From NCBI GenBank assembly GCA_001777515.1, contig MFEF01000002.1, forward strand, positions 5,354 to 69,353: a DNA stretch of 64,000 nt. The letters run 5' to 3'. Under the pieces are notes generated by a model. That model worked only from the letters and a program-made list of their open reading frames with translations. It searched no databases and had not been told where the DNA came from. Shown here in pieces: positions 15,749 to 62,482 of the stretch (position 1 is its first letter; each line of letters begins with the position of its first letter). The translations under genes were made by a program, and so were the position numbers. Origin of the DNA: Candidatus Doudnabacteria bacterium RIFCSPHIGHO2_01_48_18. Its GTDB lineage: Bacteria; Patescibacteriota; Doudnabacteria; UBA920; 2-01-FULL-46-14.

Positions 15749-15760
15749 TCAGATTTTTAA

Positions 15761-15790
15761 AACACCTCAACCGCCGGTTGAGGTGTTTTG
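15761..15790 (+). terminator. rho-independent terminator after rplM-rpsI
   Basis: CACCTCAAC (15763-15771) / GTTGAGGTG (15777-15785) followed by TTTTGTG. Confidence 0.65.
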
Positions 15791-15805
15791 TGCTATAATA
15801 CAGTC

Positions 15806-16299: not shown

Positions 16300-16307
16300 A
16301 CCTTTTT

Positions 16308-16407
16308 ATCCAGCACCTTCCAGAATACCCCGCAGCTTGCTGCGGGGATGAATGGCTCAATATAGCCTTCCTGCGGGGTGCAATACCCCGACAGGAAGGT
16401 GCTGGAT
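16308..16407. repeat. 100-bp nested-palindrome MITE/REP-like element, copy A
   Basis: 14-bp terminal inverted repeats ATCCAGCACCTTCC / GGAAGGTGCTGGAT. Internal palindromes CCCCGCAGCttgCTGCGGGG and CCTTCCTGCGGGG...CCCCGACAGGAAGG. Copy A is the exact reverse complement (100/100) of 26931..27030. Confidence 0.85.
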
Positions 16408-16448
16408 TTATTTCAGCGTAACCCCGCTTGATTTAAAGCAAATAAAAA

Positions 16449-16484
16449 ACGGGGGTGTCTAGAGACCTAGACTCCCCGTTTCTG
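16449..16484. terminator. imperfect hairpin flanked by A-run and T-run (bidirectional terminator-like)
   Basis: aaaaaaCGGGGGTGTCTAG agac CTAGACTCCCCGtttctg. Confidence 0.4.
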
Positions 16485-16534
16485 TATTATCAGTCTATTC
16501 TATAATTTTGGTTTCGTCGGCGTGTATAGGAATA

Positions 16535-16582
16535 AAAAAGAAGCTATAAAAAGCTTCTTTTTGGTTTTTTGTACAAAAAACC
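16535..16582. terminator. two consecutive AT-rich perfect hairpins
   Basis: AAAAAGAAGCT ataaaa AGCTTCTTTTT (16535-16562), then GGTTTTTT gtac AAAAAACC (16563-16582). Confidence 0.4.
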
Positions 16583-16585
16583 AAT

Positions 16586-16614
16586 TTGACTTGGCCGACT
16601 CAATTTAGTAGAAT
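16586..16614 (+). promoter_or_regulatory. consensus sigma70-type promoter
   Basis: TTGACT (16586-16591), 17-nt spacer, TAGAAT (16609-16614). A strong SD AAAGGAGGG lies downstream, 4 nt before ATG 16645. Confidence 0.6.
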
Positions 16615-16644
16615 TATTGTTCTAACAAAATGAAAGGAGGGCTG

Positions 16645-17769: not shown

Positions 17770-17771
17770 TT

Positions 17772-17800
17772 AGGACCAACCACCCCAAGGTTGGTCCTAA
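17772..17800 (+). terminator. hairpin terminator after the asparaginase-like gene
   Basis: AGGACCAACC (17772-17781) / GGTTGGTCCT (17789-17798), 7-nt loop, followed by AATTTGTTG. TATAAT lies at 17808-17813. Confidence 0.5.
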
Positions 17801-17819
17801 TTTGTTGTATAATCAAACT

Positions 17820-18368
17820 ATGCCGGAAATAATTGTTGCTCTTATCAGATTGCTAGTCCCGCTTTATATCGTGAGGCGGCCGTTTTGGGGTATGATGGCC
17901 GCGGTCGTGGTTGATGGTTTCGAGATGGAGTTTTTGCGCGGTCTGGGAGCAATATTCAACCATAGTTCTGCCATAAACATTGAGGTATATCAGCTGCGGG
18001 ACAAGATTTTGGATTTGTACATGTCGTCAATCGCTCTTTACAAAACCTATGGCTGGCAGGAAATGCTGGCGCGCAGGGCAGCGGTTTTTTTGTTTGTGTG
18101 GCGCTTCATAGGCGTGATTTTGTTTGAACTCTCGCAAGCGCGCTGGCTACTCGTCTTGTTTCCTAATATTTTTGAGTTTTTCTTTTTGTTTGTTGCTTAT
18201 AAATTGCAGTATTATCCAGGGTTTCGATTTGGTACTACAAAGCGTCTGGCGCAGAGTATTTTGATTTTAGCGGTGCCAAAAATCACCCAGGAATATCTGC
18301 TGCATGTCCGAGGGGCAGTGGATTGGGCGTATTTTAAATACAACATAATCGGATGGCCAAAACTATGA
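17820..18368 (+). CDS. hypothetical integral membrane protein
   Basis: ATG at 17820 lies 6 nt after TATAAT (leaderless-like). There are 4-5 hydrophobic segments. The longer ORF-track start (17649) overlaps the upstream gene and the terminator. Confidence 0.45.
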   Translation: MPEIIVALIRLLVPLYIVRRPFWGMMAAVVVDGFEMEFLRGLGAIFNHSSAINIEVYQLRDKILDLYMSSIALYKTYGWQEMLARRAAVFLFVWRFIGVILFELSQARWLLVLFPNIFEFFFLFVAYKLQYYPGFRFGTTKRLAQSILILAVPKITQEYLLHVRGAVDWAYFKYNIIGWPKL

Positions 18369-20110
18369 GTATAAAAAATTCCGAAATGGCGAAAATTCTG
18401 CGCGAGATTGGCGGCTACTACGAAATGAAAAACGAGCCATTTAAACCCAGGGCGTACGAGCGCGCGGCAGATTCGCTTGACGCGCTCGATGAGCAAGCAG
18501 GGCAGATTTACAAAGAAGCCGGTTTTAAAGGACTGCGAACCATTCCTGGGATAGGGCAGGGAATCGCTGAGCATATTGAAGAGCTTTTGAAGAGCGGTCG
18601 TCTCAAGAAATATGACAGCCTCAAAAAACAGATGCCAGTCAACCTCGCGGAGCTGACCTCAATCTCAGGTCTCGGAGCAAAGACCGCAGGCGAGCTCTAT
18701 AAAAAGTTGAAAATCAAAAATCTCAAAGATCTGAAAAGAGCAGTCGCGAGTCATCGCTTGCAAAAGATCAAAGGCTTTGGAAAAAAGACAGAAGAAAATA
18801 TTGTCAAAGCTCTAGAGTCAAAAGGTACCGCTACGCAGCGCTATTTGCTCGGCTACATATATCCGATTATAGAAAGGCTTAGAGTCAAACTGGAAAGTTC
18901 TGGTCAGTTTGAAAAATTAATCGTTGGCGGATCGTACCGCCGGAAGCAGGAAACAGTGGGTGATATTGACGTCCTTGCTATCGCCAAAAACCCGAAACAA
19001 GCCATGGACTATTTCGTAAACCTGCCGGAAGCAGGACAGGTCGTGGCGCACGGGGTAACCAAATCCGCGATCAGGCTGAACAATGGCATTCAGGTTGATC
19101 TCCTGGTAGTACCGCCAAAGTCCTGGGGCGCAGCCATGATTTATTTCACTGGAGACCTTGCGCACAATATCAAAATGCGCAAAATTGCGATTGATAAAGG
19201 TTGGAAGCTATCCGGAACAGGGCTCTACAAAGGAAAGAAACTCATTGCTGGCATATCAGAAGAAGAGGTTTACAAAAAACTCGGCTTAAAACAGGTTCCT
19301 CCGCCAGAAATACGCACCGACTCCGGAGAGATAGAGGCCGCCCTTCGGCAAGCTCAGGGCAAACCAGGTGGTTTACCTAAACTAATAGAATATGATGAAG
19401 TGAGGGGTGATTTGCAGGTTCAGACTAGTTGGACAGACGGCAAGGCAAGCATTGAAGACATGGCCATGGCCGCTATGGCGCTGGGCAGAGAGTATATTGC
19501 CATAACTGACCACACCAAGACTCTTTACATGACCGGTGGTCTAGATGAGAAAAAGATCCTCCAGCAGGGAAAAGAAATCGAGAGAGTAAATAAAAAGCTG
19601 AGGGGTAAGATTCGAATTTTGAAGGGGGCAGAAGTAAACATTCTCAAAGACGGAACGCTTGACATCGCGGACAGTACGCTTGCAAAGCTCGACGTAGTTG
19701 GCGCATCCATTCATTCGCATTTCAAGCTCTCCAGAGAAGACCAGACAAAGCGGATTATCCGCGCGCTTTCCAATCCCAACGTGGATATTTTTTTCCACCC
19801 TACAACTCGTATTATCCAGCGCCGCGATCCGATTGATTTTGATTTTGAGGAAGTGTTAAAAGCTGCGAAGAAATACCGGGCCGCTCTCGAGATCAACTCT
19901 TATCCGGACCGCCTCGATCTTCATGACAAAATGATCAGGCAGACAGTAGAGGCTGGCGTAAAGCTGGTTATCAATACTGACGCGCACGCTCCAAAACATT
20001 TGGAGTTTATCCAATACGGGATTGCGCAAGCGCGCCGCGGCTGGGCTACGAAAAAAGATATTTTGAATACTATGACCGCGGAGGAGCTGCTGCAATACTT
20101 GACTAAATAG
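18353..20110 (+). CDS. family X DNA polymerase with C-terminal PHP phosphoesterase domain (PolX)
   Basis: N-terminal HhH region (ILREIGGYYEMKNEPFKPRAYERAA), Pol-beta nucleotidyltransferase motif GGSYRRKQETVGDIDVL, and a C-terminal PHP domain of about 230 aa. Confidence 0.8.
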   Translation: MAKTMSIKNSEMAKILREIGGYYEMKNEPFKPRAYERAADSLDALDEQAGQIYKEAGFKGLRTIPGIGQGIAEHIEELLKSGRLKKYDSLKKQMPVNLAELTSISGLGAKTAGELYKKLKIKNLKDLKRAVASHRLQKIKGFGKKTEENIVKALESKGTATQRYLLGYIYPIIERLRVKLESSGQFEKLIVGGSYRRKQETVGDIDVLAIAKNPKQAMDYFVNLPEAGQVVAHGVTKSAIRLNNGIQVDLLVVPPKSWGAAMIYFTGDLAHNIKMRKIAIDKGWKLSGTGLYKGKKLIAGISEEEVYKKLGLKQVPPPEIRTDSGEIEAALRQAQGKPGGLPKLIEYDEVRGDLQVQTSWTDGKASIEDMAMAAMALGREYIAITDHTKTLYMTGGLDEKKILQQGKEIERVNKKLRGKIRILKGAEVNILKDGTLDIADSTLAKLDVVGASIHSHFKLSREDQTKRIIRALSNPNVDIFFHPTTRIIQRRDPIDFDFEEVLKAAKKYRAALEINSYPDRLDLHDKMIRQTVEAGVKLVINTDAHAPKHLEFIQYGIAQARRGWATKKDILNTMTAEELLQYLTK

Positions 20111-39566: not shown

Positions 39567-40754
39567 ATGGCAAACTTGAAAATTTCTATCGGGGCGAACA
39601 TCGGCGTATTTTTCGGCAGCCGCAGTCCAGAACATGATATTTCAATAATCACCGGACAGCTCATCATTTCTGGCCTCAAGAAGATGGGCATGAAAGTCGT
39701 GCCAGTTTATCTTGATAAAGAAGGCATGTGGCGGATTGGCGATGATCTGGGAAATCTCAAGACCTTTACCGAAGATAAAAGCCTTGCTGGTTTCGAAAAG
39801 TATTACCTTGACCTCGAAAAATCACAAGGTAGGCTGGTATTTCGCAAAAAAGGCCTGGCTGGAAAAGAAATCATCGTTGATCTGGCGTTCCCGGCTTTCC
39901 ACGGGGCCAAAGGCGAGGACGGCGCTGTCCAGGGCTTGTTTGAAATGTTCAACGTGCCATACGTTGGTTGCCCAGTGCCCGCCAGCGCGGTTGCCATGGA
40001 TAAAATTCTCACTAAACAGTTTTATAAAGCGAACAATATCCCGACTACGGAATTCGTTTCTTTCAGGCTCGCAGACTGGCTGACGGACAAGAACGCAATA
40101 ATTAAAAATATCTCCAAGCTAAAATGGCCACTATTTGTAAAGCCGCCCTTGCTTGGTTCGTCTATCGGTATCACTAAGGCCCACAATCAAAAAGAACTAG
40201 AGTTTGGCGTTGAGGTTGCCTTGCATTACGGAAACACAGTCCTCGTTGAAGAGGGCGTGGAAAAGCTTGTGGATGTGACGTGCGCGGTTTTGGGACATGC
40301 GAACCCCAAGGCCTCGTTTTTGCAAGAATCAGTTTTTGAAAAAGAGCTTTTGTCTTATGACGACAAATATTTAAACGATGGGGGAGCGCAGACCGGCAAA
40401 TCCTCGAAGAGCGTAGTGATTCCGGCCAGGCTTGATGACAAAACCACCAAGGAAATCCAGGAAATGTCAGTGAAAATCTTCAAACTTCTCGGTTGCAGCG
40501 GTATCGCGCGTTTTGATTTTCTCTACAACAAAGAAACCAGGCAGTATTTTGCCAACGAAATAAATCCGCTGCCCGGCACGCTTTATCATCACCTATGGCA
40601 AAAAACCGGCGTCGAGCTTGACCAGCTTTTGCAAACGCTCTTGGATAGCGCAAAGGAAGCGCAAGATGAAAAAAATCGTTACAAGACTACCTTTGAGTCT
40701 GACATCTTAAAAATGGCGAAATCTACCAAGCTCAATTTGAAAAAAGATGGTTAG
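39567..40754 (+). CDS. ddl: D-alanine--D-alanine ligase
   Basis: IGVFFGSRSPEHDISIITG ... FHGAKGEDGAVQGLFEMFNVPYVGC ... ATP-grasp. Confidence 0.85.
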   Translation: MANLKISIGANIGVFFGSRSPEHDISIITGQLIISGLKKMGMKVVPVYLDKEGMWRIGDDLGNLKTFTEDKSLAGFEKYYLDLEKSQGRLVFRKKGLAGKEIIVDLAFPAFHGAKGEDGAVQGLFEMFNVPYVGCPVPASAVAMDKILTKQFYKANNIPTTEFVSFRLADWLTDKNAIIKNISKLKWPLFVKPPLLGSSIGITKAHNQKELEFGVEVALHYGNTVLVEEGVEKLVDVTCAVLGHANPKASFLQESVFEKELLSYDDKYLNDGGAQTGKSSKSVVIPARLDDKTTKEIQEMSVKIFKLLGCSGIARFDFLYNKETRQYFANEINPLPGTLYHHLWQKTGVELDQLLQTLLDSAKEAQDEKNRYKTTFESDILKMAKSTKLNLKKDG

Positions 40755-41634
40755 AGAATCGCGTTTTCGCAATCCAGAGTTTCAGGAAAAATTGGCCAGG
40801 GCAAGGCGCTATGAGCGAAAGACTGGCCTTTATTTTAGCTGGCGGAGTTTTATTATTCTCGGCTTGTTTTTGACCGCTGTTTATTTTTTAGCCATTTCCA
40901 AAAAGTTTTTGGTTACGCAAGCCGCGGTAAGCGGTACGGGAGCGAGCGCCGAAGAAATCAGCGCAGTGCTTACACGAATGCGCAATGAGCGTTTCGGTTA
41001 CGTGATTCCGCGAAACCATATTCTCATTCTCGATGAAGAAAAATTGCTATTTGAAATCCAGCAGGAATTTCCCGCTGTCAGAAGCATTTCCGCTTTAAAA
41101 AAAATCTGGCCGGACCAGATCGCCGTTGCCATCGAAGAGCGTGTTCCAAAATATGTTTGGCAGAGCGGCAGTGATTTTTACCTATTGGATCAGGACGGAG
41201 TTGTTTTTCAAGCAATTGCTTCCTATGCGCCGGAAACCTTTTCCCAGGCTCTGATCATCGATACCTCAGCCGCGCCCGTGACCGCAGGCGAAGGCCTAAG
41301 TATAAAGCCGATTTTAGAATTTGTAAGCAGAGCCAAGGATGCCTGGCAAACTCATATCAATCAGGCCGGGCTAGTACATTTTTCCGTTCCCGGCGGAAAA
41401 AGCCAGGATATTTTGGTGAAAACCACAATCGGTTTCAATGTACTTTTCGATCTCGAGCGCGATCCTGTCGAACAGCTCGAGAACCTCAAGATCCTATTGA
41501 ACCGGGAGATATTGCCGGAGACCCATGGCGGACTTTCCTATATAGACTTGCGCTTGCCTCACATGGCGTATTATTGTTATAAGGATGCGCCTTGCGCGCC
41601 AGAATACGCAACTTCAACCCAGCCCAGCATATGA
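40747..41634 (+). CDS. ftsQ: cell division protein FtsQ/DivIB-like (POTRA domain)
   Basis: N-terminal TM IILGLFLTAVYFLAI, followed by a POTRA-like region (IPRNHILILDEEKLLFEIQQEFPAVRSI). It sits directly after ddl. Confidence 0.55.
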   Translation: MVRESRFRNPEFQEKLARARRYERKTGLYFSWRSFIILGLFLTAVYFLAISKKFLVTQAAVSGTGASAEEISAVLTRMRNERFGYVIPRNHILILDEEKLLFEIQQEFPAVRSISALKKIWPDQIAVAIEERVPKYVWQSGSDFYLLDQDGVVFQAIASYAPETFSQALIIDTSAAPVTAGEGLSIKPILEFVSRAKDAWQTHINQAGLVHFSVPGGKSQDILVKTTIGFNVLFDLERDPVEQLENLKILLNREILPETHGGLSYIDLRLPHMAYYCYKDAPCAPEYATSTQPSI

Positions 41635-42311
41635 AAAACATTTATGTAATCTCAGTCGGTGGTTCGCTCATCGCTCCTGATGGCATCGATAAAAATTTTT
41701 TGAAGAAATTTTGCTTGGCGCTAATGACATCTGCCAAAGGCAAGCAGTTTGTCGTCATTCCTGGCGGCGGAGCAACTGCCAGGCAGTATCAGAAAGCCGC
41801 CGAGGAACTTGGTAAAGCAAGCAATGATGATCTTGATTGGATTGGCATTGCCGCGAATGTTTTGCATTCCCATTTCCTGCGCGCGATTTTTGGCAAATAC
41901 GCTCACCCAGGGATCGTGGAGCTGAATTCGAAAACACCTGATATCAAAAAATCGATAGCAATCGCTCGCGGTGGATTGAAACCGGGAGGGACATCTGACA
42001 GCACGGCTGTAAAGTTTGCAGAAAAATTTAAAGCTAAAACCGTCATCAACCTCACCAACGTTTCAGGTGTTTATGACCGCGATCCGCGCAAATTTAAGAA
42101 TGCAAAACTGATCCCCCACATGTCTTGGGCGCAGCTAAAAAAACAATTTGGCACCAAAAAAACACCGGGGCGCAATCTGCCGTTCGATTCGGCAGCCGCG
42201 GATATGGCCGCGAAACTAAAATTGTGCGCAGCGATCATGAATGGCCGCGACCTTAAAAACTTTCAGAGTTTTCTAGACGGTCAAGCTTTTACCGGAACGC
42301 TGATTCAATAA
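41631..42311 (+). CDS. pyrH: amino-acid-kinase-family protein, archaeal-type UMP kinase-like
   Basis: ISVGGSLI, VVIPGGGATARQY, GGLKPGGTSDSTAVKFAE and LTNVSGVYDRDP align with Pyrococcus UMPK motifs (DIGGSVL, VVVGGGKLARKY, GGTHPGHTTDAVAALLAE, ITNVDGVYTADP). ATG 41631 overlaps the ftsQ stop. Confidence 0.6.
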   Translation: MKNIYVISVGGSLIAPDGIDKNFLKKFCLALMTSAKGKQFVVIPGGGATARQYQKAAEELGKASNDDLDWIGIAANVLHSHFLRAIFGKYAHPGIVELNSKTPDIKKSIAIARGGLKPGGTSDSTAVKFAEKFKAKTVINLTNVSGVYDRDPRKFKNAKLIPHMSWAQLKKQFGTKKTPGRNLPFDSAAADMAAKLKLCAAIMNGRDLKNFQSFLDGQAFTGTLIQ

Positions 42312-51311: not shown

Positions 51312-51516
51312 GGATTTTATTTATTTAGGGTACGTTAATAATACTGCCGCAGAAGAGCCTGGTCAAACCCCGCCAAAATCCATAAAAGCGATCTGTTCAT
51401 CCTCATCTTAGCCACAGTTTACCCACCAAATTTTACAAAAAAAAGCAGGAAGCCTCGTATCTTGCGAAAGCTCCCTGACTCTCCCTTATGGAGAGATTAA
51501 GTGGCGAATTATCCAG

Positions 51517-53190
51517 TCACCTCAGATTCAGACGGTCAAAGTCTGATTTGGTTTCCTCGAACATTCTCCCCAAGAATTTTTTGATGCTCGAGCCCACTCC
51601 CTGCTGCGTGCTTGTATTTTTTCCGTCCGTGCCGGTGGCAGCGGCGACGGCAAATTTGGGGTCCTCTTGAAAATCCAGGGTTTGCAAAAACTCTTCGCCC
51701 AGAGCCCTGCAAAGGTTAGATCTGATTTCGATCTCTTTGAGCGCTTCTTCGGTGAGAGTTAGTTCCCGGAAACCGGTAATCTTGGTCAGCTGATGAAACG
51801 TGAGATCGTGAGACAAATGCACTGGCCCTTCCTGTGACCGAATCACGCATTTGGTGAGCTTGAAATTTTTCTTGATGATCGCTTTCATGCGGTGATGAAT
51901 CGCTTCTGGCAAGCCTTTTCCAAAGTTTCCGATTTCCGCCAGACCGGGAAGATTTTTCATGATCTCATCATAAGTCATGATTTCCTCCGGAAGTTCCGCG
52001 ACTCGAGCATGCGCATTTTCGAGCTTCATGGCTTCGATCCAGTCAGGCAGGGCGGGGAAATCTCTCATTCGTTTGAAACGGGCCACGTTATCAATCGGTT
52101 CCACCGGCGCAATCGCGCCGTGTTCAAACAGCGCAAATTTGTGTTTCTGGGATGCAGCAATGAACGCTTCATGGAAGCGAAGAGACACCACAACAACTTT
52201 GTCATCACTGAGAGCTTCGCTGTTCATCTGGTGGATCTTGATGCGATTCTCAAGAGCAGATTGGCGCTCCTCATCTTTTCTGGCGAACATGGCGTTAACC
52301 GCTCCCACATTCCTTGGAGTGCGGATGACGCGGATGGCGCCTTTGAGCGGACGCTGCTGTTCCGTGAAGAGCCGGTTTTTCCAGCTTTCTTCGTAATGCG
52401 CTTTCATAGCCTCGGCATTGGCGAGATCTGCGATAGGCAACTCGATCCTGGTCATAGTGATTGGCCCGCATTCCTGGTAGAGCTCAGCCAGTCTGCGCCC
52501 GTCGATCTTTTTGCCGAAAGAATCCGAGCTAAAGATTGTGATTAGCGTATCGAGCAGGTCCTCAATTTGCCTGTCGAATTCGTCGTAATTGATTTCCTGC
52601 CCGCTCGTATCTGCCGCGTCCGTGCACATTTCCAGGTAGGGAATGCCGAGCTTCCTCATCTGTTCGAATACCACGTCGGCTTCCTCTACCCGCTGCCACG
52701 AGCTGCCATCTTCGACCGACGGCCGTATCGTGAGTGCGAAGGGGATGATTTTCTTGCGGTTTTTGTCATCAGTCTGGGCGAGAATCAGCTTCAGGATTTC
52801 TATCAGCGTGCCGCGGCCAGTGTTTCCGCCCAAAGCTACAATGACGACAATGATCTGCGTGAGTGCCAGGACCAGCTTTTGAAACTCGTTCTGCACTGAT
52901 TTGGTGAGAAACGAATCGCGCCCTTCTTCCGCGCTTCCCGCGCCATTCATCCGGCCATCGCCGTAACGGATGATCTGCAGCAGCCTTGCTGTAGATTTCT
53001 CGCGTTCCAGGGTGGCATGCTCCGTATTCCCAGCAACGAATTGGATGGTTTCCTTAAGCGCATCAATTCGCGAGGGATCTGACGCCGCCCATTTTTTGAA
53101 TCGTCTCTCTAGGATGCGAGCGGCAATCGCCGCAATCTGCACGCCAACGTTGCCTGAACCGAAAACCTTGATCCGTAGCCGTTCTTCCAT
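51517..53190 (-). CDS. divergent FtsZ/tubulin-superfamily GTPase with ~240-aa C-terminal extension (557 aa)
   Basis: FtsZ GTPase motifs occur in canonical order and spacing: T1-like KVFGSGNVG (aa 8-16), T2 QFVAGNTEHATL (cf. FIAVNTDAQAL), T3 GDGRMNGAGSAEEGR (cf. GLGAGANPEVGR), T4 ALGGNTGRG (cf. GGGTGTG), T7 INYDEFD (cf. NVDFAD) at about aa 200. The T1 box is atypical. The C-terminal 240 aa have no recognisable family. Confidence 0.6.
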   Translation of the reverse strand: MEERLRIKVFGSGNVGVQIAAIAARILERRFKKWAASDPSRIDALKETIQFVAGNTEHATLEREKSTARLLQIIRYGDGRMNGAGSAEEGRDSFLTKSVQNEFQKLVLALTQIIVVIVALGGNTGRGTLIEILKLILAQTDDKNRKKIIPFALTIRPSVEDGSSWQRVEEADVVFEQMRKLGIPYLEMCTDAADTSGQEINYDEFDRQIEDLLDTLITIFSSDSFGKKIDGRRLAELYQECGPITMTRIELPIADLANAEAMKAHYEESWKNRLFTEQQRPLKGAIRVIRTPRNVGAVNAMFARKDEERQSALENRIKIHQMNSEALSDDKVVVVSLRFHEAFIAASQKHKFALFEHGAIAPVEPIDNVARFKRMRDFPALPDWIEAMKLENAHARVAELPEEIMTYDEIMKNLPGLAEIGNFGKGLPEAIHHRMKAIIKKNFKLTKCVIRSQEGPVHLSHDLTFHQLTKITGFRELTLTEEALKEIEIRSNLCRALGEEFLQTLDFQEDPKFAVAAATGTDGKNTSTQQGVGSSIKKFLGRMFEETKSDFDRLNLR

Positions 53191-53199
53191 ATCTGCTCC

Positions 53200-54417
53200 T
53201 CATGTAAATTTCAGCGTTAAAATTCCTTTGTCATCCTCAAAGCGAAAACTTTCCTTCTTGAATCTGGCATCGCCGATTCGTTGCATCGTCCTTTCTATGT
53301 GTTCTTCCGTGTCCGGTATTTCTGACAATTTTTTTCTCCTGAGCTGGCCAACGATTTCGATAATAAGTTTCCCGTTTTTTGGGTCAGGATGAGGCTTGAT
53401 TACCAGTGGTTCCTGGTTTCGATCAGTCCGCTGCCTTTTGATCAGCTCATCGCGCAGCTTGTCAGCGTATTTGCGCATAGCTGGATTGAGCCAGTCAACA
53501 CCAATTTCCCTGATTTGCTCTAGGCTGATTTTGCCCAGTCTATGAAATTTAATAAAGGGAACGGTGTACTGATTTAACCCCTCTTTGCCTGTTTTATGCC
53601 CGAGAGTCGCTCCTGCTTCGCTGTAGACCTGCTTCGTTTGTTCAAGTACTGTGTTTAGGCCGGCAGGAATTTTGTTGGCGTCGTATATGATGATGGCACG
53701 CAGCGGCCGGATTTTGAGCCAGCTGTCGTTTATATGAGTGCCAGCTTGCGCGGCGCGATGAATGATATCGTCTCTAATGAGTCCGAGTTTTGCGCGTTTT
53801 TGTGATTTCGGAACCTGGAAGAACTTCGGAAAGGACGACTTAGCGATACGAGGCCGGTACCTCGCTATCACAAAGATCAGTACTGCAGAGGCAAGAACGG
53901 CTGCTATAGCCCACAAAATAACCGGCTGCAGATAAGTTACTTTTTCCATCTGTACAGTCGGCAGGGGCAGACTTGGTGGGGGAATCGCCGGTGAAAAAGT
54001 TTTGGGAATGTAGACTGTCTGATCGAGTGCTTGCCGCGGATTTCTGATTTCATTTATCGCGCTCAAGCTTTTTAAACAATCAGGATTTACGTACTGCTGG
54101 CAAATCGCTGCTAGCGATTGATTGTTTGACAGAATCGCAGTTGTTTTAACCTGATCTTTTTGAATCAAGACTTGCCAACCTGGACGAATCAAATGCTTGT
54201 TGCTTCTTACTCGCCCCCGGTTGTCCATTACCAATACCCAATTGGCTTTCCAATTCGCAGCGTTTCGCGTGGCTCGCAGAGCAATACGGCCAACTGTGTC
54301 ACCTTTTTCTACTGCAACTGTTTCATAGTTCTGTTTGTTTGGGATTTGCGCTATCGCCTCTTGGCCATAGGCAAAAAACCCCAGCAGCAAAAAGAACTGG
54401 ATAATTCTTTTATACAT
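53200..54417 (-). CDS. bitopic membrane protein: signal peptide, LysM-like extracellular domain, single TM, ~210-aa cytoplasmic domain
   Basis: N-terminal signal peptide (IIQFFLLLGFFAYGQEAIAQ), LysM-like YETVAVEKGDTVGRIA ... IRPGWQVLI, TM VILWAIAAVLASAVLIFVIA. SD GGAGGA lies before ATG 54417 (the TTG at 54420 is in frame). The gene ends 9 nt before the FtsZ-like gene on the same strand. Confidence 0.55.
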   Translation of the reverse strand: MYKRIIQFFLLLGFFAYGQEAIAQIPNKQNYETVAVEKGDTVGRIALRATRNAANWKANWVLVMDNRGRVRSNKHLIRPGWQVLIQKDQVKTTAILSNNQSLAAICQQYVNPDCLKSLSAINEIRNPRQALDQTVYIPKTFSPAIPPPSLPLPTVQMEKVTYLQPVILWAIAAVLASAVLIFVIARYRPRIAKSSFPKFFQVPKSQKRAKLGLIRDDIIHRAAQAGTHINDSWLKIRPLRAIIIYDANKIPAGLNTVLEQTKQVYSEAGATLGHKTGKEGLNQYTVPFIKFHRLGKISLEQIREIGVDWLNPAMRKYADKLRDELIKRQRTDRNQEPLVIKPHPDPKNGKLIIEIVGQLRRKKLSEIPDTEEHIERTMQRIGDARFKKESFRFEDDKGILTLKFT

Positions 54418-54561
54418 CAATCCTCCGAATTTTGCTTTTGAAAGTTTCTTGCCTGCTTGCAGGACAAGTTATGATTAAAGCTATCAACTCGAAAATAGCG
54501 CTCCTATGTAGAAGCGCACAGAAGAAACAATATTTTTCGTTTCAATTTTTTGCCGATCGCA

Positions 54562-54590
54562 CAATAAAAAATGCCCCGGGAATCGGGGTA
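54562..54590 (-). terminator. hairpin terminator downstream of cysS (bidirectional in form)
   Basis: On the + strand: aaaaaaTGCCCCGggaatCGGGGTAaaattttt. On the minus strand the hairpin is followed by ATTTTTTAT. Confidence 0.5.
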
Positions 54591-54620
54591 AAATTTTTCA
54601 TCAGCTAACTAATATTATAT

Positions 54621-54649
54621 ATTATAGCGAAAATTTTAGTTTTTGTCAA
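54621..54649 (-). promoter_or_regulatory. perfect-consensus sigma70 promoter on minus strand at the 3' end of cysS
   Basis: The minus strand reads TTGACA (54649-54644), 17-nt spacer, TATAAT (54626-54621). It is oriented toward the LysM / FtsZ-like operon, but sits about 30 nt upstream of the hairpin terminator. Confidence 0.45.
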
Positions 54650-56078: not shown

Positions 56079-56750
56079 TCAAAGCGATTTGACTTTGCCG
56101 AGAAACGACCCGCACAGCAAGATAAATGATTTCCAGCCAAGACCGTACGCGATCCAATCCAGCGGCCAAAAGGCAGTACTGACAAACAGGACGATGCATA
56201 TCATGAGACAGATCTCAGATACCATTTTTGCTTTTCCAATGCCGGTGGATTTCAGTTTTTTTAGAACGTCTGCCACAGGCGTACCAATCAGAACTGAGAT
56301 CACGAAAAACAAAACCGCCAAAGTTCCATAGGCGATTTCGCCAGCAGCTATCCAAAGCATGAAATTTTCACGGAAAGCATCATAGTAGTAAATAGTGAAG
56401 AGGATTCCCACGATGAATGCCTTGTCAGTGAGTGAATCAAGCAAGCCGCCAAGCGACGATTCGGATTTGCCTTCTTTTCTGGCCATGATTCCGTCGATGT
56501 TGTCTGTCCAGGCCGCGGCAATGATTGCCAGCAGCGCCAGGATATATTGCTGATAAGCGATTAGCGCGCAAATTCCCGGCGTGGAAATGAGTCTAGTGGC
56601 GGTAATTTGGTCCGAGGTATAGCCGCGCCTCCGAAGCCAGTCGGCTTGCGGTTCGGCTGCTCTCGCGAGAATTTCGCGACCTTGAATGAGCAGGCCGTCA
56701 GTTCTCGAGCACACAGCGCCCCACGTTTGGACGATTACGGCGACAGCCAT
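56079..56750 (-). CDS. CDP-alcohol phosphatidyltransferase family protein (PgsA/PssA-like)
   Basis: Perfect family motif D-x2-DG-x2-AR-x8-G-x3-D-x3-D: DNIDGIMARKEGKSESSLGGLLDSLTDK. Confidence 0.8.
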   Translation of the reverse strand: MAVAVIVQTWGAVCSRTDGLLIQGREILARAAEPQADWLRRRGYTSDQITATRLISTPGICALIAYQQYILALLAIIAAAWTDNIDGIMARKEGKSESSLGGLLDSLTDKAFIVGILFTIYYYDAFRENFMLWIAAGEIAYGTLAVLFFVISVLIGTPVADVLKKLKSTGIGKAKMVSEICLMICIVLFVSTAFWPLDWIAYGLGWKSFILLCGSFLGKVKSL

Positions 56751-58765: not shown

Positions 58766-59299
58766 ATGGATACTGGCGCTGGCGCGATCGCTAAACTGAG
58801 CGAAGAGTTTTCCCGGCATGTCACGAACGGAAAACTTGGGCAATTTTTTCCTTCAATGCAGGCGAGTACTGCCGTGAGCATGCTTACGCGCGATCTGGAA
58901 ATGAAACGCGAATTGGGGCATTTGTCTGACGCTGAAAAGGCAATCCTCAGTCAAATTGACGATTTGTGGGAAGATATAGCTAAATATAACCAAAGCGCGG
59001 ACAAGAACACGCCGCCTCCGGCAGAACAGGTTTATAACCTCGCGGAAAGCAAAATGCAGGACGTACCGGAAGAAGCAGCGCCCCCTGCTCATCAGCCGAT
59101 TTCGTACGAGCAAGCGGATCAGATCATCGAGGGCTTGAACAAGCAGTTTGAGGAAAAAATCATGAGCAAACAGCGGCACGATTTGGAAGCTGGACGAAAT
59201 TTGCAGGAATATATGGCCGCGGTTCAAAACAAAAAACTGCGCATTCCCTTTGCTGGAGAAGAAAGCCAGATTGATTTGAGCAAGCTTAAAAGCGCGTAG
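58766..59299 (+). CDS. hypothetical acidic protein (177 aa)
   Basis: First gene of a tightly spaced + strand operon. Low-complexity acidic and Pro-rich middle region. No family recognised. Confidence 0.4.
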   Translation: MDTGAGAIAKLSEEFSRHVTNGKLGQFFPSMQASTAVSMLTRDLEMKRELGHLSDAEKAILSQIDDLWEDIAKYNQSADKNTPPPAEQVYNLAESKMQDVPEEAAPPAHQPISYEQADQIIEGLNKQFEEKIMSKQRHDLEAGRNLQEYMAAVQNKKLRIPFAGEESQIDLSKLKSA

Positions 59300-59300
59300 C

Positions 59301-59645
59301 GTGTATTACGATTTAGAACAAAAAATCGAAGACTATTCCGAAGAGCTGTTTATTGACCTGGGCTTGGCGACCCTCACGGAAGAAACCAAGGCTGACCTTT
59401 TCGCGCGGGTGCAAAATCATTTGCACCAGGTCATCGCGGAAATAGTTAAGCAATATTTGCCCGCCCCAGATGTCACGAAAATCAATCAAGCTCTCAGTGA
59501 AGAAGACTATCGCGCGCTCGATGTGGTCCTAAAAAATTACCCGCAGTACAAAGAGCAATTGGAAACAAAAATAGACGAAGAATTTGCAAAATTAAAACAA
59601 ACAATTTCCGAGGAACAAACGAATGCCAGACTTCAATCGAGCTAA
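59301..59645 (+). CDS. hypothetical acidic helical protein (114 aa)
   Basis: Lies 1 nt after the previous stop. Predicted all-alpha, acidic. Confidence 0.4.
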   Translation: MYYDLEQKIEDYSEELFIDLGLATLTEETKADLFARVQNHLHQVIAEIVKQYLPAPDVTKINQALSEEDYRALDVVLKNYPQYKEQLETKIDEEFAKLKQTISEEQTNARLQSS

Positions 59646-59982
59646 AGGTGAGAAATCCGATTTTGAACACATTCCGCCACAAGAAACCAAAGACGTAGCA
59701 GAGAATTTGCCAGATGGCGCAACGGCTCAAGATCTGCAAAGCGAAGTTGTGACCGCGGAAGTTCCTTCTTTGGAACTCCCAGATATAGTAAATCCAGAAC
59801 CGGACACGGGGAATCGCGGCGAGCTCCATCCTGCATTGGTTGGAGTAAAGGGCTTGGAATTTGCCAGAAGAGTTATCTCTGAAACTGCCCGCAAAAAGGC
59901 GGTTTCAGCTGCAGACCTGGAGCAGGTCAACGACCTGCTCAGCGAGCACATAGAACAAAGAAACAAAGACCAAAATGGCTGA
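59623..59982 (+). CDS. hypothetical acidic protein (119 aa)
   Basis: Overlaps its neighbours on both sides, consistent with translational coupling into the ATPase gene. Confidence 0.35.
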   Translation: MPDFNRAKGEKSDFEHIPPQETKDVAENLPDGATAQDLQSEVVTAEVPSLELPDIVNPEPDTGNRGELHPALVGVKGLEFARRVISETARKKAVSAADLEQVNDLLSEHIEQRNKDQNG

Positions 59983-62482
59983 ACAAATGTTTATTATTTT
60001 GCCTTGGCTGCTGGCCGCGTTAATAGTCGGCCTGGCAGCGGTTTTTTGGTACCGCGGAAAGCTGCGTCTGCGCCTCGCTGGCGAGAAACTTCTTGATTCC
60101 GTGTTCCTAGAGGTTTTGCTACCGCGCGAAAATACAGTAGCGGACAAAGAAAAAGAACCGGCCAAGGAAGAAAAAGAAATGATTGCGGTGGCGGAGCAGC
60201 TGTTTGCCACTTTGGGCCACGCGGAAAAAAGAAATTTTACTACTTTTTTGCGGGGGCACGAAACGATCAGTTTTGAGATCATAAGCGTGGACAAGAAAAT
60301 TTCTTTTTTGATCAACTGTCCGAGCCGCCTGCGCGATCTGCTGGAAAAGCAGATTCAGGCGCAATATCCGACGGCCCAGATCGACGAGGTGTTGCCGCCG
60401 AAAATCATTCGCAGTTCGGGAAAAATCGCGGCCCATGAGCTTGGACTGCAAAAAAAATACCTGTTTCCGATTAAAACCTACAAGGTCATGGAAAGCGATC
60501 CACTGAACGCGTTGGCAAACAGCCTGTCAAAACTCGGCGAAAAGGAATCAGCGGCATTACAGCTTGTGGTAGGTCCGGCGCCTTTAGGTTGGCGGGCGAA
60601 GATATTGCAGAGGGCCAGAGAAATCCAAAAAGGCCGTGACATTGAAATGCATGATGACTTTTTACTTAAAGTTCTAAATGTAATTGCCAGCGAAATCGGA
60701 GAGTTTATTTCCGGTAGCCCGCGCGGACAGAAATCTCCGCCTCCAGACGGAACCGACCCCGTGAAGGGAGCGTACAAGCAGCTCACCCCGCTTCAGCAGG
60801 ACGCTGTAAAAAAACTCGAAGAAAAGGCGTCAAAAAACGCGTTTGAGGTGAATTTGCGCGCGGTGGTATGCTCGGAAACCGCAGAAGCAGCGGCAAGCCA
60901 CATGCGTAATATCCTGGCTTCTTTTATGCAATACACGCATTCGCCGTTTAACGGCTTTCGGATTTTGCGAAAACCTCTTGCCAGGACCGCCAGGGACTAT
61001 GTGTTTCGCGCGCTGCAGGTCAAATGGCCGGGGAAAATTATTCTCAACACCGAAGAGCTGTCGAGTATATTTCATTTCCCGACAAAATACAATCAAACAC
61101 CCAATATCAAATGGCTGACGGCGAAACGCGCGCCGGCTCCTTTGAATATTCCAAAGGCCGGCTTGCTTTTGGGCATGAATAATTACCGTGGGGTCAAGAC
61201 TGAGGTCAGAATCGCCCCTGATGACCGCCGTCGGCATATGTACATTATCGGGCGCACGGGTACTGGCAAATCAGAGTTCATGAAAAACCTGGCGATTCAG
61301 GATATTCAAAACGGACAAGGACTGGCGGTTATAGATCCCCACGGTGATCTGGTTGAATCGCTCCTGCAGCACATTCCCAAAAACCGCGTTGACGATGTGG
61401 TGCTATTCGAGCCGTTTGATATGGCGCGCCCCATGGGTTTAAATATGCTCGAGGTTGATAATGACGAAGAAAAAGATTTCGCGGTCCAGGAAATGATTGA
61501 AATTTTTTACAAACTGTTTCCACCGGAAATGATCGGACCTATGTTTGAGCACAACATGAGAAATGTCATGCTAACTCTTATGGCGGACAAGCAGTATCCG
61601 GGAACGATCGCAGAAATACCACGGATGTTTACTGATCCCGAGTTTCAGCGCTATAAATTGACCAAGGTCAACGATCCGGTCGTCCGGTCTTTCTGGGAGC
61701 AGGAAATGGCCAAGACCAGTGATTTTCATAAATCAGAAATGCTGGGCTATCTGATTTCCAAGGTTGGCCGCTTCGTGGAGAACGAAATGATGCGCAATAT
61801 CATCGGACAATCGCATTCTGCTTTCAATTTCCGAAAGATCATGGACGAGGGGAAGATATTGCTCATAAATTTATCAAAAGGCAAGACGGGCGAGGTCAAC
61901 TCGAAATTGCTCGGACTGATCATTGTCTCCAAACTGCAAATGGGCGCGCTGTCGCGGTCTGACATTCCAGAAACCAGCCGCAAGGATTTTTATTTGTATA
62001 TTGACGAGTTTCAAAATTTTGTCACAGACAGTTTGGCAACCATTCTTTCCGAAGCCAGAAAATATCGCTTAAACTTGGTTATGGCCCACCAGTACATCAG
62101 CCAGCTCGTGCACGAAAACAATACCAAAATCAGAGACGCTGTTTTTGGCAATGCTGGCACAATTGTTTCATTTCGTATTGGCGTCGAGGACGCAGAAATC
62201 ATGGCTAGAGAATTCTCGCCAGTGTTCAACGATTTTGACGTGATTAATGTCGAACGGTTTCATGCTTATGTAAAACTGATGCTCAATGGCACCGCCTCGC
62301 GTTCCTTTAACCTCGAGACCATCCTCCCAGCGAGAGATGGGTCCGAATCAATGGCCGCGGCTGTCAAAAAACTCTCGAAGCTAAAATACGGCCGGTTGAG
62401 AGATGAGGTGGAAGCGGAAATTTCTCGCAACGCCCGGCTTGGCAAAATGCCAGCGGCCGCCGGCATTGAAAGAACAGTATGA
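59975..62482 (+). CDS. membrane-anchored FtsK/HerA-superfamily ATPase, VirD4/TrwB/TraG (type IV coupling protein)-like
   Basis: N-terminal TM (ILPWLLAALIVGLAAVFWY). Walker A HMYIIGRTGTGKSEFMKNL followed by AVIDPHGDL (cf. TrwB GATGTGKS ... IVDPNGD). Walker B FYLYIDEFQNFV. Arginine-finger/sensor region RKYRLNLVMAHQYISQL. Confidence 0.55.
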   Translation: MAEQMFIILPWLLAALIVGLAAVFWYRGKLRLRLAGEKLLDSVFLEVLLPRENTVADKEKEPAKEEKEMIAVAEQLFATLGHAEKRNFTTFLRGHETISFEIISVDKKISFLINCPSRLRDLLEKQIQAQYPTAQIDEVLPPKIIRSSGKIAAHELGLQKKYLFPIKTYKVMESDPLNALANSLSKLGEKESAALQLVVGPAPLGWRAKILQRAREIQKGRDIEMHDDFLLKVLNVIASEIGEFISGSPRGQKSPPPDGTDPVKGAYKQLTPLQQDAVKKLEEKASKNAFEVNLRAVVCSETAEAAASHMRNILASFMQYTHSPFNGFRILRKPLARTARDYVFRALQVKWPGKIILNTEELSSIFHFPTKYNQTPNIKWLTAKRAPAPLNIPKAGLLLGMNNYRGVKTEVRIAPDDRRRHMYIIGRTGTGKSEFMKNLAIQDIQNGQGLAVIDPHGDLVESLLQHIPKNRVDDVVLFEPFDMARPMGLNMLEVDNDEEKDFAVQEMIEIFYKLFPPEMIGPMFEHNMRNVMLTLMADKQYPGTIAEIPRMFTDPEFQRYKLTKVNDPVVRSFWEQEMAKTSDFHKSEMLGYLISKVGRFVENEMMRNIIGQSHSAFNFRKIMDEGKILLINLSKGKTGEVNSKLLGLIIVSKLQMGALSRSDIPETSRKDFYLYIDEFQNFVTDSLATILSEARKYRLNLVMAHQYISQLVHENNTKIRDAVFGNAGTIVSFRIGVEDAEIMAREFSPVFNDFDVINVERFHAYVKLMLNGTASRSFNLETILPARDGSESMAAAVKKLSKLKYGRLRDEVEAEISRNARLGKMPAAAGIERTV

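What the first reader, a model, noticed from the sequence alone, without database searches (positions are those of the whole stretch)
51517..54417. Two-gene operon: LysM/TM membrane tether plus a divergent FtsZ-like GTPase, away from the cell-division cluster
The 557-aa minus-strand protein (51517..53190) carries the FtsZ GTPase motifs in the right order and spacing: T2 FVAGNTEHATL, T3 GAGSAEEGR, T4 GGNTGRG, and an intact T7 NYDEFD loop, which implies polymerisation-dependent GTPase activity. Its T1 box (GSGNVG) is non-canonical and it has a C-terminal domain of about 240 aa of unknown type. Nine nt upstream on the same strand is a 405-aa protein with a cleavable signal peptide, a LysM-like peptidoglycan-binding domain outside, one TM helix and a cytoplasmic domain of about 210 aa. 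The cytoplasmic domain is a plausible filament anchor, analogous to ZipA/SepF/FtsA. Meanwhile the dcw-like cluster in this window (murD-ftsW ... murF-ddl-ftsQ) ends in a UMP kinase with no ftsA/ftsZ. One reading is that this is the lineage's relocated, highly divergent FtsZ with a novel PG-binding membrane anchor. The other reading is an accessory FtsZ-like cytoskeletal/membrane-remodelling module (conceptually like the FtsZl families of Makarova and Koonin), possibly used for septation or host attachment in a small-genome symbiont. Either would be a new pairing.
Basis: partly seen in the sequence, partly recalled or inferred. Interest (0 to 1): 0.82.

Follow-up and report, generated by a model that had tools for sequence, protein, structure and literature searches.

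The report
Accessory FtsZ-like protein with wall-binding partner
A two-gene operon in an uncultured Doudnabacteria (CPR) genome encodes a very divergent, fast-evolving extra member of the FtsZ/tubulin family together with a membrane protein that probably binds the cell wall; it is not the cell's division FtsZ, because a normal ftsA-ftsZ pair sits elsewhere in the same organism.

Summary
ORFs 51517..53190(-) (557 aa) and 53200..54417(-) (405 aa) form a compact operon. It has a 9-nt gap, a promoter-like site upstream and a hairpin+U8 terminator downstream.

- "NYDEFD" is the start of helix H7, not T7. The topological T7 (G-x-x-I-D-x-x-R) lacks the NxDxxD signature, so polymerisation-dependent GTPase activity cannot be inferred.
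- The "relocated sole FtsZ" reading is refuted. A canonical ftsA-ftsZ occurs in the same samples, and for the sister species in the same assembly. It is 95.6% identical between two species whose FtsZ-like proteins share 26%.

The family consists of three Doudnabacteria lineages among 1.84 billion representative proteins. It is always paired with the LysM-like/TM protein between cysS and dnaB.

Best reading: an accessory FtsZ-superfamily polymer or oligomer that is linked to the wall. The function is inferred, not shown. UniRef already labels the protein "Tubulin/FtsZ GTPase domain-containing".

The parts
51517..53190 (-). Gene for the 557-aa FtsZ/tubulin-superfamily protein (NCBI hypothetical protein A3C85_01310; UniRef 'Tubulin/FtsZ GTPase domain-containing protein')
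52528..53190 (-). Residues 1-221: Rossmann-type nucleotide-binding domain plus core helix H7. Loop equivalents: T1 GSGNVG (11-16), T2 AGNTEH (53-58), T3 GAGS (83-86), T4 GGNTGRG (121-127), T5 RPSVEDG (156-162). NYDEFD (201-206) is the start of H7.
   Evidence: hhalign register to FtsZ, P=6.8e-4 and P=1.3e-3. DSSP order of elements. Motif positions. Invariant A53 G54 N55 H58 T60 G83 A84 S86 G121 G122 N123 T124 P157 D161.
52492..52527 (-). Residues 222-233: topological T7 loop and start of H8 (SDSFGKKIDGRR). G226, I229, D230 and R233 are invariant. There is no NxDxxD signature; Arg or Leu sits at the position of the catalytic Asp.
   Evidence: The loop lies between helices 202-221 and 231-239 of the model (pLDDT is low here). 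Three-sequence alignment. There is no sequence signal to FtsZ in this half, so the register is inferred.
52165..52491 (-). Residues 234-342: FtsZ-type C-terminal (activation) domain (H8-S7-H9-S8-H10-S9-S10)
51520..52164 (-). Residues 343-557: family-specific, mostly helical C-terminal extension of unknown fold. It ends in a moderately amphipathic helix (IKKFLGRMFEE, 536-546).
   Evidence: pLDDT below 45. 47% identical to P0005 but largely unalignable to P0007. Hydrophobic moment at the 96.5th percentile.
53200..54417 (-). Gene for the 405-aa partner: signal peptide (1-23), LysM-like module (about 31-88), poorly assigned region (90-145), TM helix (166-184), cytoplasmic alpha/beta domain (188-405)
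   Evidence: ORF. P0002 is 405 aa. YneA/LysM-type hits. Hydropathy and charge bias. Homologs P0004 and L006 ORF 8721..10004 are always adjacent to the FtsZ-like gene.
53191..53199 (-). 9-nt intergenic spacer with GGAG; suggests translational coupling
   Evidence: Sequence. The orthologous pairs overlap by 4 nt (L006) or about 35 nt (L001).
54621..54649 (-). Promoter-like site TTGACA-17-TATAAT (12/12) upstream of the operon, overlapping the cysS stop
   Evidence: Consensus scan. Pattern match only. It lies upstream of the cysS terminator-like hairpin at 54588..54574.
51437..51481 (-). Intrinsic-terminator-like hairpin followed by U8, 36 nt after the stop codon
   Evidence: RNA fold dG -17.8 kcal/mol, z -2.7. 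Sequence.

Best explanation
The operon encodes an accessory, lineage-specific member of the FtsZ/tubulin superfamily and a dedicated bitopic membrane partner. The FtsZ-like protein has the full two-domain FtsZ core and keeps most phosphate- and ribose-binding loops (T1-T5). It therefore most likely binds GTP and can self-associate head to tail.

Its T7 'synergy' loop has lost the NxDxxD catalytic signature. Any filament or oligomer is thus expected to hydrolyse GTP slowly or by a different route.

The partner is exported by a signal peptide. It exposes a LysM-like peptidoglycan-binding module outside the cell, crosses the membrane once and presents a domain of about 215 aa to the cytoplasm.

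The two proteins are co-translated. They most likely form a transmembrane complex that couples the cytoplasmic FtsZ-like assembly to the cell wall, in the way RodZ couples MreB or LmdC couples bactofilin to wall-directed functions. The complex acts alongside the canonical FtsA-FtsZ divisome and does not replace it.

Shown here: the fold, the motif register, the operon structure, the conserved pairing, the presence of canonical ftsAZ, and the rapid divergence.

Inferred: GTP binding, polymerisation, physical contact between the two proteins, peptidoglycan binding, and the cellular role.
For: - Motif register for T1-T5 by hhalign. The invariant residues sit in these loops.
- Operon: 9-nt gap, promoter-like site, terminator.
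- Pairing and synteny cysS-[pair]-dnaB are conserved in all three lineages known.
- Accessory status: canonical ftsA-ftsZ occurs in the same samples, ERZ27254842, JGI 3300025317 and ERZ27254763. It also occurs in the same assembly, GCA_001779925.1, for the sister species. The NCBI accession blocks interleave.
- Conservation: canonical FtsZ is 95.6% identical between the two species, the FtsZ-like protein 26%.
- Partner topology: one TM, +4 net charge on the C-terminal side. LysM-type hits.
- The identity of the partner's cytoplasmic domain tracks that of the FtsZ-like protein across lineages, while the ectodomain stays at 42-50%.
Against: - No sequence profile (Pfam PF00091/PF12327/PF13809, NCBIfam, PDB-HMMER) detects the family. 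The assignment rests on a model built from a 3-sequence alignment (mean pLDDT 56; 62-86 over residues 1-342).
- The G-box is GGNTG[RC], not GGGTG[ST]G. T7 is not canonical, and the T7 region has low pLDDT. GTP binding, hydrolysis and polymerisation are all unproven.
- The partner's model is poor (pLDDT 55) and matches no known FtsZ-binding fold.
- LysM support is sub-threshold.
- Very fast divergence and a distribution limited to three lineages fit a dispensable or conflict-related gene as well as a cytoskeletal one.
- There are no expression or localisation data.
Confidence: 0.55

Rival explanations
1. It is the lineage's own division FtsZ, relocated and highly diverged, with the LysM/TM protein as a new membrane anchor.
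For: The dcw cluster in the window ends ftsQ-pyrH without ftsA/ftsZ. In CPR, ftsZ is usually in the dcw cluster (PMC9871819).
Against: - A canonical ftsA-ftsZ (Pfam Tubulin+FtsZ_C; GGGTGTG, NVDFAD, IPAFIRKKMK tail) is found at rpsU-yqeY-ftsA-ftsZ in the same samples and sibling MAGs.
- It is in the same assembly as the FtsZ-like gene for the sister species.
- Canonical FtsZ is 95.6% conserved where the FtsZ-like protein is 26%.
- The family is absent from most Doudnabacteria: only 3 clusters among 1.84e9 representatives.
Confidence: 0.03
2. It is a cell-division regulator. The YneA-like LysM/TM protein and a hydrolysis-defective FtsZ-fold protein act together to cap or sequester canonical FtsZ polymers, for example as a checkpoint. 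This would be analogous to the B. subtilis SOS division suppressor YneA and to FtsZ T7 mutants that poison polymers.
For: - The best database hit of the partner is the YneA equivalog model, over its whole length 5-84/87 (E 8e-5).
- T7 lacks the catalytic Asp pattern while the nucleotide-binding face is better conserved. That is what a capping subunit would look like.
- The operon sits beside dnaB-recR.
Against: - The YneA hit is far below the curated cutoff (22.5 vs 60 bits) and may reflect only the signal-anchor+LysM architecture.
- The FtsZ-like protein shares no detectable sequence similarity with the organism's own FtsZ (BLAST E 0.75), so co-polymerisation interfaces are unlikely to be kept.
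- No LexA or SOS signal was examined or found.
Confidence: 0.15
3. It is a conflict or defence module (anti-phage or inter-cellular) that uses a tubulin-fold NTP-dependent assembly, like the tubulin-containing GTPase-centric systems described by Kaur et al. 2020.
For: - Both genes diverge very quickly compared with their neighbours: 26-36% vs 68-90% identity.
- The taxonomic range is tiny.
- Tubulin homologs are known components of predicted conflict systems (PMC7159879).
Against: - No PADLOC hit and no PHROG or viral relatives of the FtsZ-like protein.
- None of the hallmark partners (vWA, TRAFAC GTPase, HSP70, effector domains) is adjacent.
- The position between housekeeping genes is fixed in all lineages, and there are no mobile-element signs.
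- No DGR template matches the pair.
Confidence: 0.15
4. It is a TubZ/PhuZ-like DNA-segregation tubulin of an integrated plasmid or prophage.
Against: - There is no TubR-like DNA-binding gene or centromere repeats. The only partner is a secreted/TM protein.
- No relatives in 2.9 million viral contigs.
- Chromosomal synteny is conserved among housekeeping genes.
Confidence: 0.03
5. The FtsZ resemblance is an artefact of motif chance and an over-fitted model; the protein is an unrelated Rossmann-fold enzyme.
For: There are no significant sequence-profile hits to tubulin/FtsZ. The MSA is shallow (3 sequences) and the model has mean pLDDT 56.
Against: - hhalign independently aligns T1-T5 in register.
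- UniRef's automatic name also calls it a Tubulin/FtsZ GTPase domain protein.
Confidence: 0.04

Closest known systems
FtsZ (bacterial/archaeal division GTPase) and CetZ
   Different: - 13-17% identity, and not detected by PF00091/PF12327.
- G-box is GGNTG.
- T7 lacks NxDxxD.
- There is no conserved C-terminal peptide of the DIPAF type. Instead there is a 215-aa helical extension.
- It is not next to ftsA.
- It evolves about an order of magnitude faster than the FtsZ of the same genomes.
FtsZl2 family (Makarova & Koonin 2010, PMC2875224)
   Same: A highly divergent FtsZ-like protein that retains the core through H7, carries an uncharacterised C-terminal region of about 200-300 aa, and coexists with canonical FtsZ.
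   Different: FtsZl2 is proteobacterial and keeps GGGTG(S/T)G and T7. It has a mixed alpha/beta C-terminal region and no conserved gene neighbours. This family is from CPR, has an altered G-box and T7, a helical tail and an obligate LysM-like/TM neighbour. No FtsZl2 profile was available for a direct test.
FtsZl1 family / Pfam Tubulin_2 (PF13809)
   Same: An accessory FtsZ-like protein encoded with membrane and peptidoglycan-associated (OmpA-domain) proteins. It is proposed to act in membrane remodelling and was later placed in conflict systems.
   Different: FtsZl1 proteins are about 1000 aa with a coiled coil. They lack T6-H7 and the FtsZ C-terminal domain, and they sit in vWA/GTPase/kinase operons. 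Here the full FtsZ core is present, there is no PF13809 hit and none of those neighbours.
TubZ/PhuZ (plasmid and phage tubulins)
   Different: There is no TubR/centromere partner, no mobile-element context and no viral relatives.
Transmembrane couplers of cytoskeletal polymers to the wall: RodZ-MreB, ZipA/FtsN-FtsZ, LmdC-bactofilin (PMC10945521)
   Same: The architecture has the same logic. A bitopic membrane protein has one domain facing a cytoplasmic polymer and another facing peptidoglycan, and it is co-encoded or co-functional with the polymer.
   Different: There is no sequence or fold similarity of the partner to any of them. The orientation is type I (signal peptide, N-out/C-in) with a LysM-like ectodomain. 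The interaction is not demonstrated.
YneA (B. subtilis SOS cell-division suppressor; NCBIfam NF010723)
   Same: N-terminal hydrophobic segment followed by an extracellular LysM module. It is the best database hit of the partner (E 8e-5).
   Different: The score is 22.5 bits against a cutoff of 60. YneA is about 100 aa with no second TM or cytoplasmic domain. This partner has 405 aa, including a 215-aa cytoplasmic domain.

Membership tests
FtsZ/tubulin superfamily | Two-domain fold: Rossmann-type nucleotide-binding domain, core helix H7, C-terminal activation domain | tested here: met
FtsZ/tubulin superfamily | Signature G-box GGGTG[ST]G in loop T4 | tested here: not met
   GGNTGRG / GGNTGRK / GGNTCAG in the three homologs. 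The residues are in register with the G-box but differ at the third and sixth positions.
FtsZ/tubulin superfamily | T7 loop N-x-D-x-x-D/E that completes the active site of the neighbouring subunit | tested here: not met
The loop between H7 and H8 reads G-x-x-I-D-x-x-R-[LF]. In either plausible register, Arg233 or Leu234 replaces the catalytic Asp and Asn is absent. The register rests on a low-pLDDT model segment.
FtsZ/tubulin superfamily | Match to Pfam PF00091 (Tubulin/FtsZ GTPase domain) | tested here: not met
   No hit even at E up to 10 for the window protein, P0005 or P0007.
FtsZ/tubulin superfamily | GTP binding and nucleotide-dependent polymerisation | not testable with these tools
   Needs biochemistry. 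Only the conservation of T1-T5 loop residues is shown.
Canonical cell-division FtsZ | PF00091+PF12327 architecture, a C-terminal conserved peptide, linkage to ftsA, and strong conservation | tested here: not met
   All four features belong to a different gene of the same organism (P0009). The FtsZ-like protein has none of them.
FtsZl1 (Pfam Tubulin_2, PF13809) | PF13809 match; about 1000 aa with a coiled coil; no FtsZ C-terminal domain; vWA/GTPase/kinase operon | tested here: not met
   No Pfam hit. The C-terminal FtsZ domain is present. The neighbours are cysS and dnaB. Family features are from PMC2875224.
FtsZl2 | Proteobacterial; GGGTG(S/T)G and T7 conserved; about 300-aa alpha/beta C-terminal region; no conserved neighbours | tested here: inconclusive
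   No FtsZl2 sequences or profile were available. By the published description, the taxon, G-box, T7 and gene context all differ.
TubZ-type segregation system | Adjacent TubR-like DNA-binding adaptor and centromere repeats on a plasmid or phage | tested here: not met
   The only partner is a secreted/TM protein. The context is chromosomal and there are no viral relatives.
LysM domain (PF01476) in the partner | Match to the LysM profile; beta-alpha-alpha-beta fold of about 44 aa | tested here: inconclusive
   Pfam LysM E=0.13 in 2 of 4 homologs, none for the window protein. PHROG endolysin E 1e-4. hhalign 90% probability, but over only the first 19 columns. The model is too poor to judge the fold. 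The second 'repeat' (90-145) is unsupported (P 0.078).
YneA (NF010723) | Score above the curated equivalog cutoff (60 bits) | tested here: not met
   22.5 bits, E 8e-5.
Known anti-phage defence systems (PADLOC) | Match of either protein to a PADLOC model | tested here: not met
   No hits at E up to 10.

The most novel reading that the evidence does not exclude
A previously undescribed kind of bacterial cytoskeletal module. A tubulin/FtsZ-fold protein has a T7 loop rebuilt around an invariant Asp-x-x-Arg. It forms stable, slowly hydrolysing or non-hydrolysing filaments. A dedicated LysM-type transmembrane partner bolts these filaments directly to peptidoglycan. This would give ultra-small episymbiotic CPR cells a wall-anchored internal scaffold (for polarity, attachment or asymmetric division) that operates beside the normal FtsAZ ring.
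Probability: 0.2. Interest if true: 0.7.

Novelty: new variant of a known kind. Interest (0 to 1): 0.5.

Why it matters
If the inferred mechanism holds, this would be a new branch of the FtsZ/tubulin superfamily with two unusual properties. Its inter-subunit catalytic loop is altered, and it has a hard-wired link to peptidoglycan through a co-translated LysM-type membrane protein. No such pairing turned up for this superfamily in the literature searches run here.

The case also shows that FtsZ-fold proteins exist below the detection limit of PF00091-based surveys. The most recent family-wide census used that model. The case adds a candidate cytoskeletal element to CPR bacteria, whose cell biology is almost unknown.

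Three things limit its weight: the very narrow distribution (three related uncultured lineages), the lack of any functional data, and the fact that the division-FtsZ reading is excluded.

Tried and rejected
- Sequence-profile routes (Pfam, NCBIfam, PADLOC and PHROGs for the FtsZ-like protein; phmmer and a family HMM against PDB sequences) gave only noise: PPR designer repeats, F420_oxidored, Cap17-like_N, GDSL.\n- The word-indexed homolog search found only the query itself, both with the single sequence and with the family alignment.\n- P0008 from the exhaustive search is a beta-propeller repeat false positive.\n- hhalign of the C-terminal half (180-345) against FtsZ 155-316 gave no signal (P about 0.6). 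The T7 register therefore could not be fixed by sequence.\n- The afdb50 fold library was unavailable.\n- The partner's AF2 model was poor, and its Foldseek and PDB-profile searches were empty. The canonical ftsZ was instead reached through the supplementary data of PMC9871819 and an exact-sequence look-up.\n- Viral-contig scan: no relatives. Metagenome scan: only the L006 species again.\n- DGR idea (a bAvd gene lies near ftsAZ): there is no template/variable-repeat match to the pair.\n- Rfam on the operon and its flanks: only snoRNA noise.\n- The 'frameshift' in the L001 ortholog is an 11-nt deletion specific to that scaffold, not a family feature.


Full report
**1. The observation**

The window carries two minus-strand ORFs at the stated places. 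One is 51517..53190 (557 aa). The other is 53200..54420 from a TTG, or 54417 from the ATG four bases after a GGAGG; the ATG gives the 405 aa annotated in NCBI.

The two ORFs are 9 nt apart, with GGAG in front of the second start. A 12/12 sigma-70 consensus lies upstream at 54649..54621. A hairpin of -17.8 kcal/mol followed by U8 lies 36 nt after the stop of the 557-aa gene. The flanking genes are cysS upstream, and dnaB then recR downstream. So a two-gene operon is a fair description.

The window is part of MFEW01000024.1 (GCA_001777735.1), a Candidatus Doudnabacteria (CPR/Patescibacteria) MAG. It spans roughly positions 74.5-138.5 kb of a 148-kb contig.

**2. Is the 557-aa protein FtsZ-like?**

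Sequence profiles say nothing. Pfam has no Tubulin, FtsZ_C or Tubulin_2 hit even at E up to 10. NCBIfam, PADLOC and PHROGs are also empty, as are phmmer and a family HMM against PDB sequences.

An exhaustive phmmer search of 1.84 billion representative proteins returned only three real relatives. These are the ortholog in L001 (P0005, 45%), a fragment of the query itself, and P0007 (28%, E 4e-20). The fourth hit is a beta-propeller false positive.

AlphaFold2 on the three-sequence alignment gave pLDDT 62-86 for residues 1-342 and below 45 for 343-557. The modelled part has the strands and helices of FtsZ in the canonical order: S1-H1...S6, H7, H8, S7-H9-S8-H10-S9-S10.

- Foldseek against the PDB returned only FtsZ/CetZ in the top 50. 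E values go down to 2e-15, probability is 1.00, TM is 0.72 normalised to the target, and about 350 columns align.
- hhalign of the family against four published FtsZ sequences aligned residues 5-181 to FtsZ 15-160 with P=6.8e-4.

That register pairs GSGNVG with T1, AGNTEH with T2, GAGS with T3, GGNTGRG with the G-box T4, and RPSVEDG with T5. The invariant residues of the family fall in exactly these loops. UniRef's automatic name for this protein and for the L006 ortholog is 'Tubulin/FtsZ GTPase domain-containing protein'.

The fold assignment is therefore sound.

**3.

NYDEFD occupies residues 201-206, which is the first turn of the long core helix H7 (202-221). It is not conserved in P0007.

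By FtsZ topology (my knowledge of the Löwe and Amos structure), T7 is the loop between H7 and H8. Here that is 222-233, SDSFGKKIDGRR, with G226, I229, D230 and R233 invariant. In either plausible register, the position of the catalytic Asp (E. coli D212) is Arg233 or Leu234, and the Asn is missing.

This segment has low pLDDT, and the C-terminal half gives no sequence signal to FtsZ. The exact register is therefore an inference. The absence of an NxDxxD signature is robust all the same. 'Polymerisation-dependent GTPase activity' cannot be read from the sequence.

The unknown C-terminal part covers residues 343-557 (about 215 aa). It is predicted helical and is 47% identical to P0005, but it is largely unalignable to P0007. 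It ends in a moderately amphipathic helix.

**4. The partner**

Hydropathy shows an N-terminal signal-like segment and one strong TM helix (166-184). Net charge is +4 on the C-terminal side and 0 on the other. This places residues 24-165 outside the cell and 188-405 in the cytoplasm.

LysM support is real but weak:
- NCBIfam YneA E 8e-5, at 22.5 bits against a cutoff of 60.
- PHROG endolysin E 1e-4.
- Pfam LysM E 0.13 in two of four homologs.
- hhalign 90% probability over the first 19 columns only (VAVEKGDTVGRIA...). A putative second repeat is unsupported.

The AF2 model was poor (pLDDT 55). Neither Foldseek nor a family HMM against the PDB found anything. The cytoplasmic domain therefore remains unassigned.

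**5. Conservation of the pair**

Homologs of both genes are adjacent, in the same order and between cysS and dnaB, in every place where either gene occurs:
- L001/L002 (the P0004+P0005 lineage).
- L006/L011/L012/L017-L024 (a sister species, MFEK01000006.1).

This is shown. The genes overlap by 4 nt in L006 and by about 35 nt in L001.

The metagenome scan found nothing beyond these lineages, and the viral scan found nothing at all. An apparent frameshift in L001 is an 11-nt deletion that is absent from the independent assembly L002.

Both genes evolve fast. Between the window and L006, identity is 26% for the FtsZ-like protein and 36% for the partner. Identity for the neighbours is DnaB 90%, RecR 84%, L21 86%, CorA 74% and CysS 68%.

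The identity of the partner's cytoplasmic domain follows that of the FtsZ-like protein across the three lineages. The ectodomain stays at 42-50%. This is a weak hint of co-evolution.

**6. Is it the cell's FtsZ?**

No. The supplementary alignments of Santana-Molina et al. 2023 (PMC9871819) contain canonical FtsZs from Doudnabacteria. Two of them come from GTDB genus 2-01-FULL-46-14.

An exact look-up shows that one of these (P0009 = OGE76052.1 and three further accessions) occurs on 25 contigs. The window protein occurs on 25 contigs under four interleaved accessions.

Its gene lies in rpsU-yqeY-ftsA-ftsZ, with Pfam Tubulin+FtsZ_C and a bona fide FtsA. It sits on contigs of the same three samples that hold the window's contig: ERZ27254842, JGI 3300025317 and ERZ27254763. 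It is also present in the sibling MAG GCA_001777695.1. Composition of the two contigs agrees (tetranucleotide r 0.96).

For the sister species the link is at assembly level. GCA_001779925.1 holds both the FtsZ-like gene and canonical FtsZ OGE79037.1.

Canonical FtsZ is 95.6% identical between the two species, against 26% for the FtsZ-like protein. BLAST finds no similarity between the two paralogs of one genome (E 0.75).

The dcw cluster in the window does end ftsQ-pyrH. That only means that ftsAZ has moved to another locus.

**7. Mechanism**

The best-supported reading is an accessory FtsZ-superfamily protein with three properties. It probably binds GTP, because T1-T5 are kept. It can probably self-associate through the conserved two-domain core. 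And it has a non-canonical inter-subunit catalytic loop.

It is co-translated with a type-I membrane protein that probably binds peptidoglycan outside the cell and offers a 215-aa domain inside. A wall-tethered cytoplasmic assembly is the simplest model. It is analogous in logic to RodZ-MreB, ZipA-FtsZ or LmdC-bactofilin (PMC10945521).

Rivals that remain open:
- A division-regulator role, with a YneA-like partner and a capping-type FtsZ fold.
- A conflict or defence role, which would fit the fast evolution and narrow range. Tubulin homologs occur in such predicted systems (PMC7159879). However, there is no PADLOC hit, no hallmark neighbours and no mobility.

The TubZ-type segregation reading and the 'chance motif' reading are unlikely.

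**8. Comparison and novelty**

The family is roughly equidistant from FtsZ, CetZ and TubZ in structure. It fails the sequence signatures of all of them.

It is not FtsZl1, which has no C-terminal FtsZ domain and sits in vWA operons (PMC2875224). By the published description it also differs from FtsZl2, which is proteobacterial, has an intact G-box and T7, and has no gene context.

The literature search found no FtsZ-like/LysM-TM pairing. PF00091-based censuses, including the 2023 one that reports a second divergent FtsZ in some CPR, would not have caught this protein.

It is therefore a new, very small family within a known superfamily, with a new partner. The fold has already been flagged by automatic annotation.

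Interest is moderate. The distribution is three uncultured lineages, and the function is inferred only.

Noticed in passing
window 40747..42311 and loci L013-L016 (ftsA 6682..7929, ftsZ 8001..9158 in L013): The dcw cluster ends ftsQ-pyrH. The organism's canonical ftsA-ftsZ is detached from it and sits at rpsU-yqeY-ftsA-ftsZ on another contig, followed by two unannotated genes (133 and 369-398 aa).
   Followed up: partly
window 58766..62482 (+) and the 142-aa ORF after it: A cluster of small ORFs (177, 114, 119 aa) followed by an 835-aa ATPase with DUF87/TraG/TrwB/T4SS-DNA_transf domains. It resembles a type IV secretion coupling protein, about 4 kb from the operon on the other strand.
   Followed up: no
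L013-L016, 5093..5443 (-): A bAvd-like gene (PF22296, accessory protein of diversity-generating retroelements) lies about 1.2 kb upstream of yqeY-ftsA. No template/variable-repeat match to the FtsZ-like operon was found.
   Followed up: partly
L001 2041..2211 vs L002 1915..2077: The L001 ortholog of the FtsZ-like gene carries an 11-nt deletion that splits off the first ~50 codons. The independent assembly L002 reads in frame there. This is either strain-level inactivation or a scaffold error.
   Followed up: yes
window 56079..56750 (-); L006 5407..6973: The CDP-alcohol phosphatidyltransferase next to cysS is only 28% identical between the two species, although its neighbours are 68-90% identical. 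L006 also has an extra 222-aa gene inserted there. This is a second fast-evolving spot in the neighbourhood.
   Followed up: no
window 54574..54649 (-): A perfect TTGACA-17-TATAAT overlaps the cysS stop codon and lies upstream of the cysS terminator-like hairpin (54588..54574). A second hairpin is at 54517..54498. The order is odd and could mean a regulated leader for the operon. Rfam finds nothing.
   Followed up: partly
L010 10607..11215 and 15706..18675 vs L009 (downstream of the window end): Strain variation between sibling MAGs. A GtrA-like gene and a 989-aa alpha-2-macroglobulin-like gene are present in MFEW01 and absent from MFFJ01.
   Followed up: no
sample ERZ28563803: L001 (scaffold_92804) and L021 (scaffold_529): Two of the three lineages that carry the gene pair coexist in the same groundwater metagenome.
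   Followed up: no
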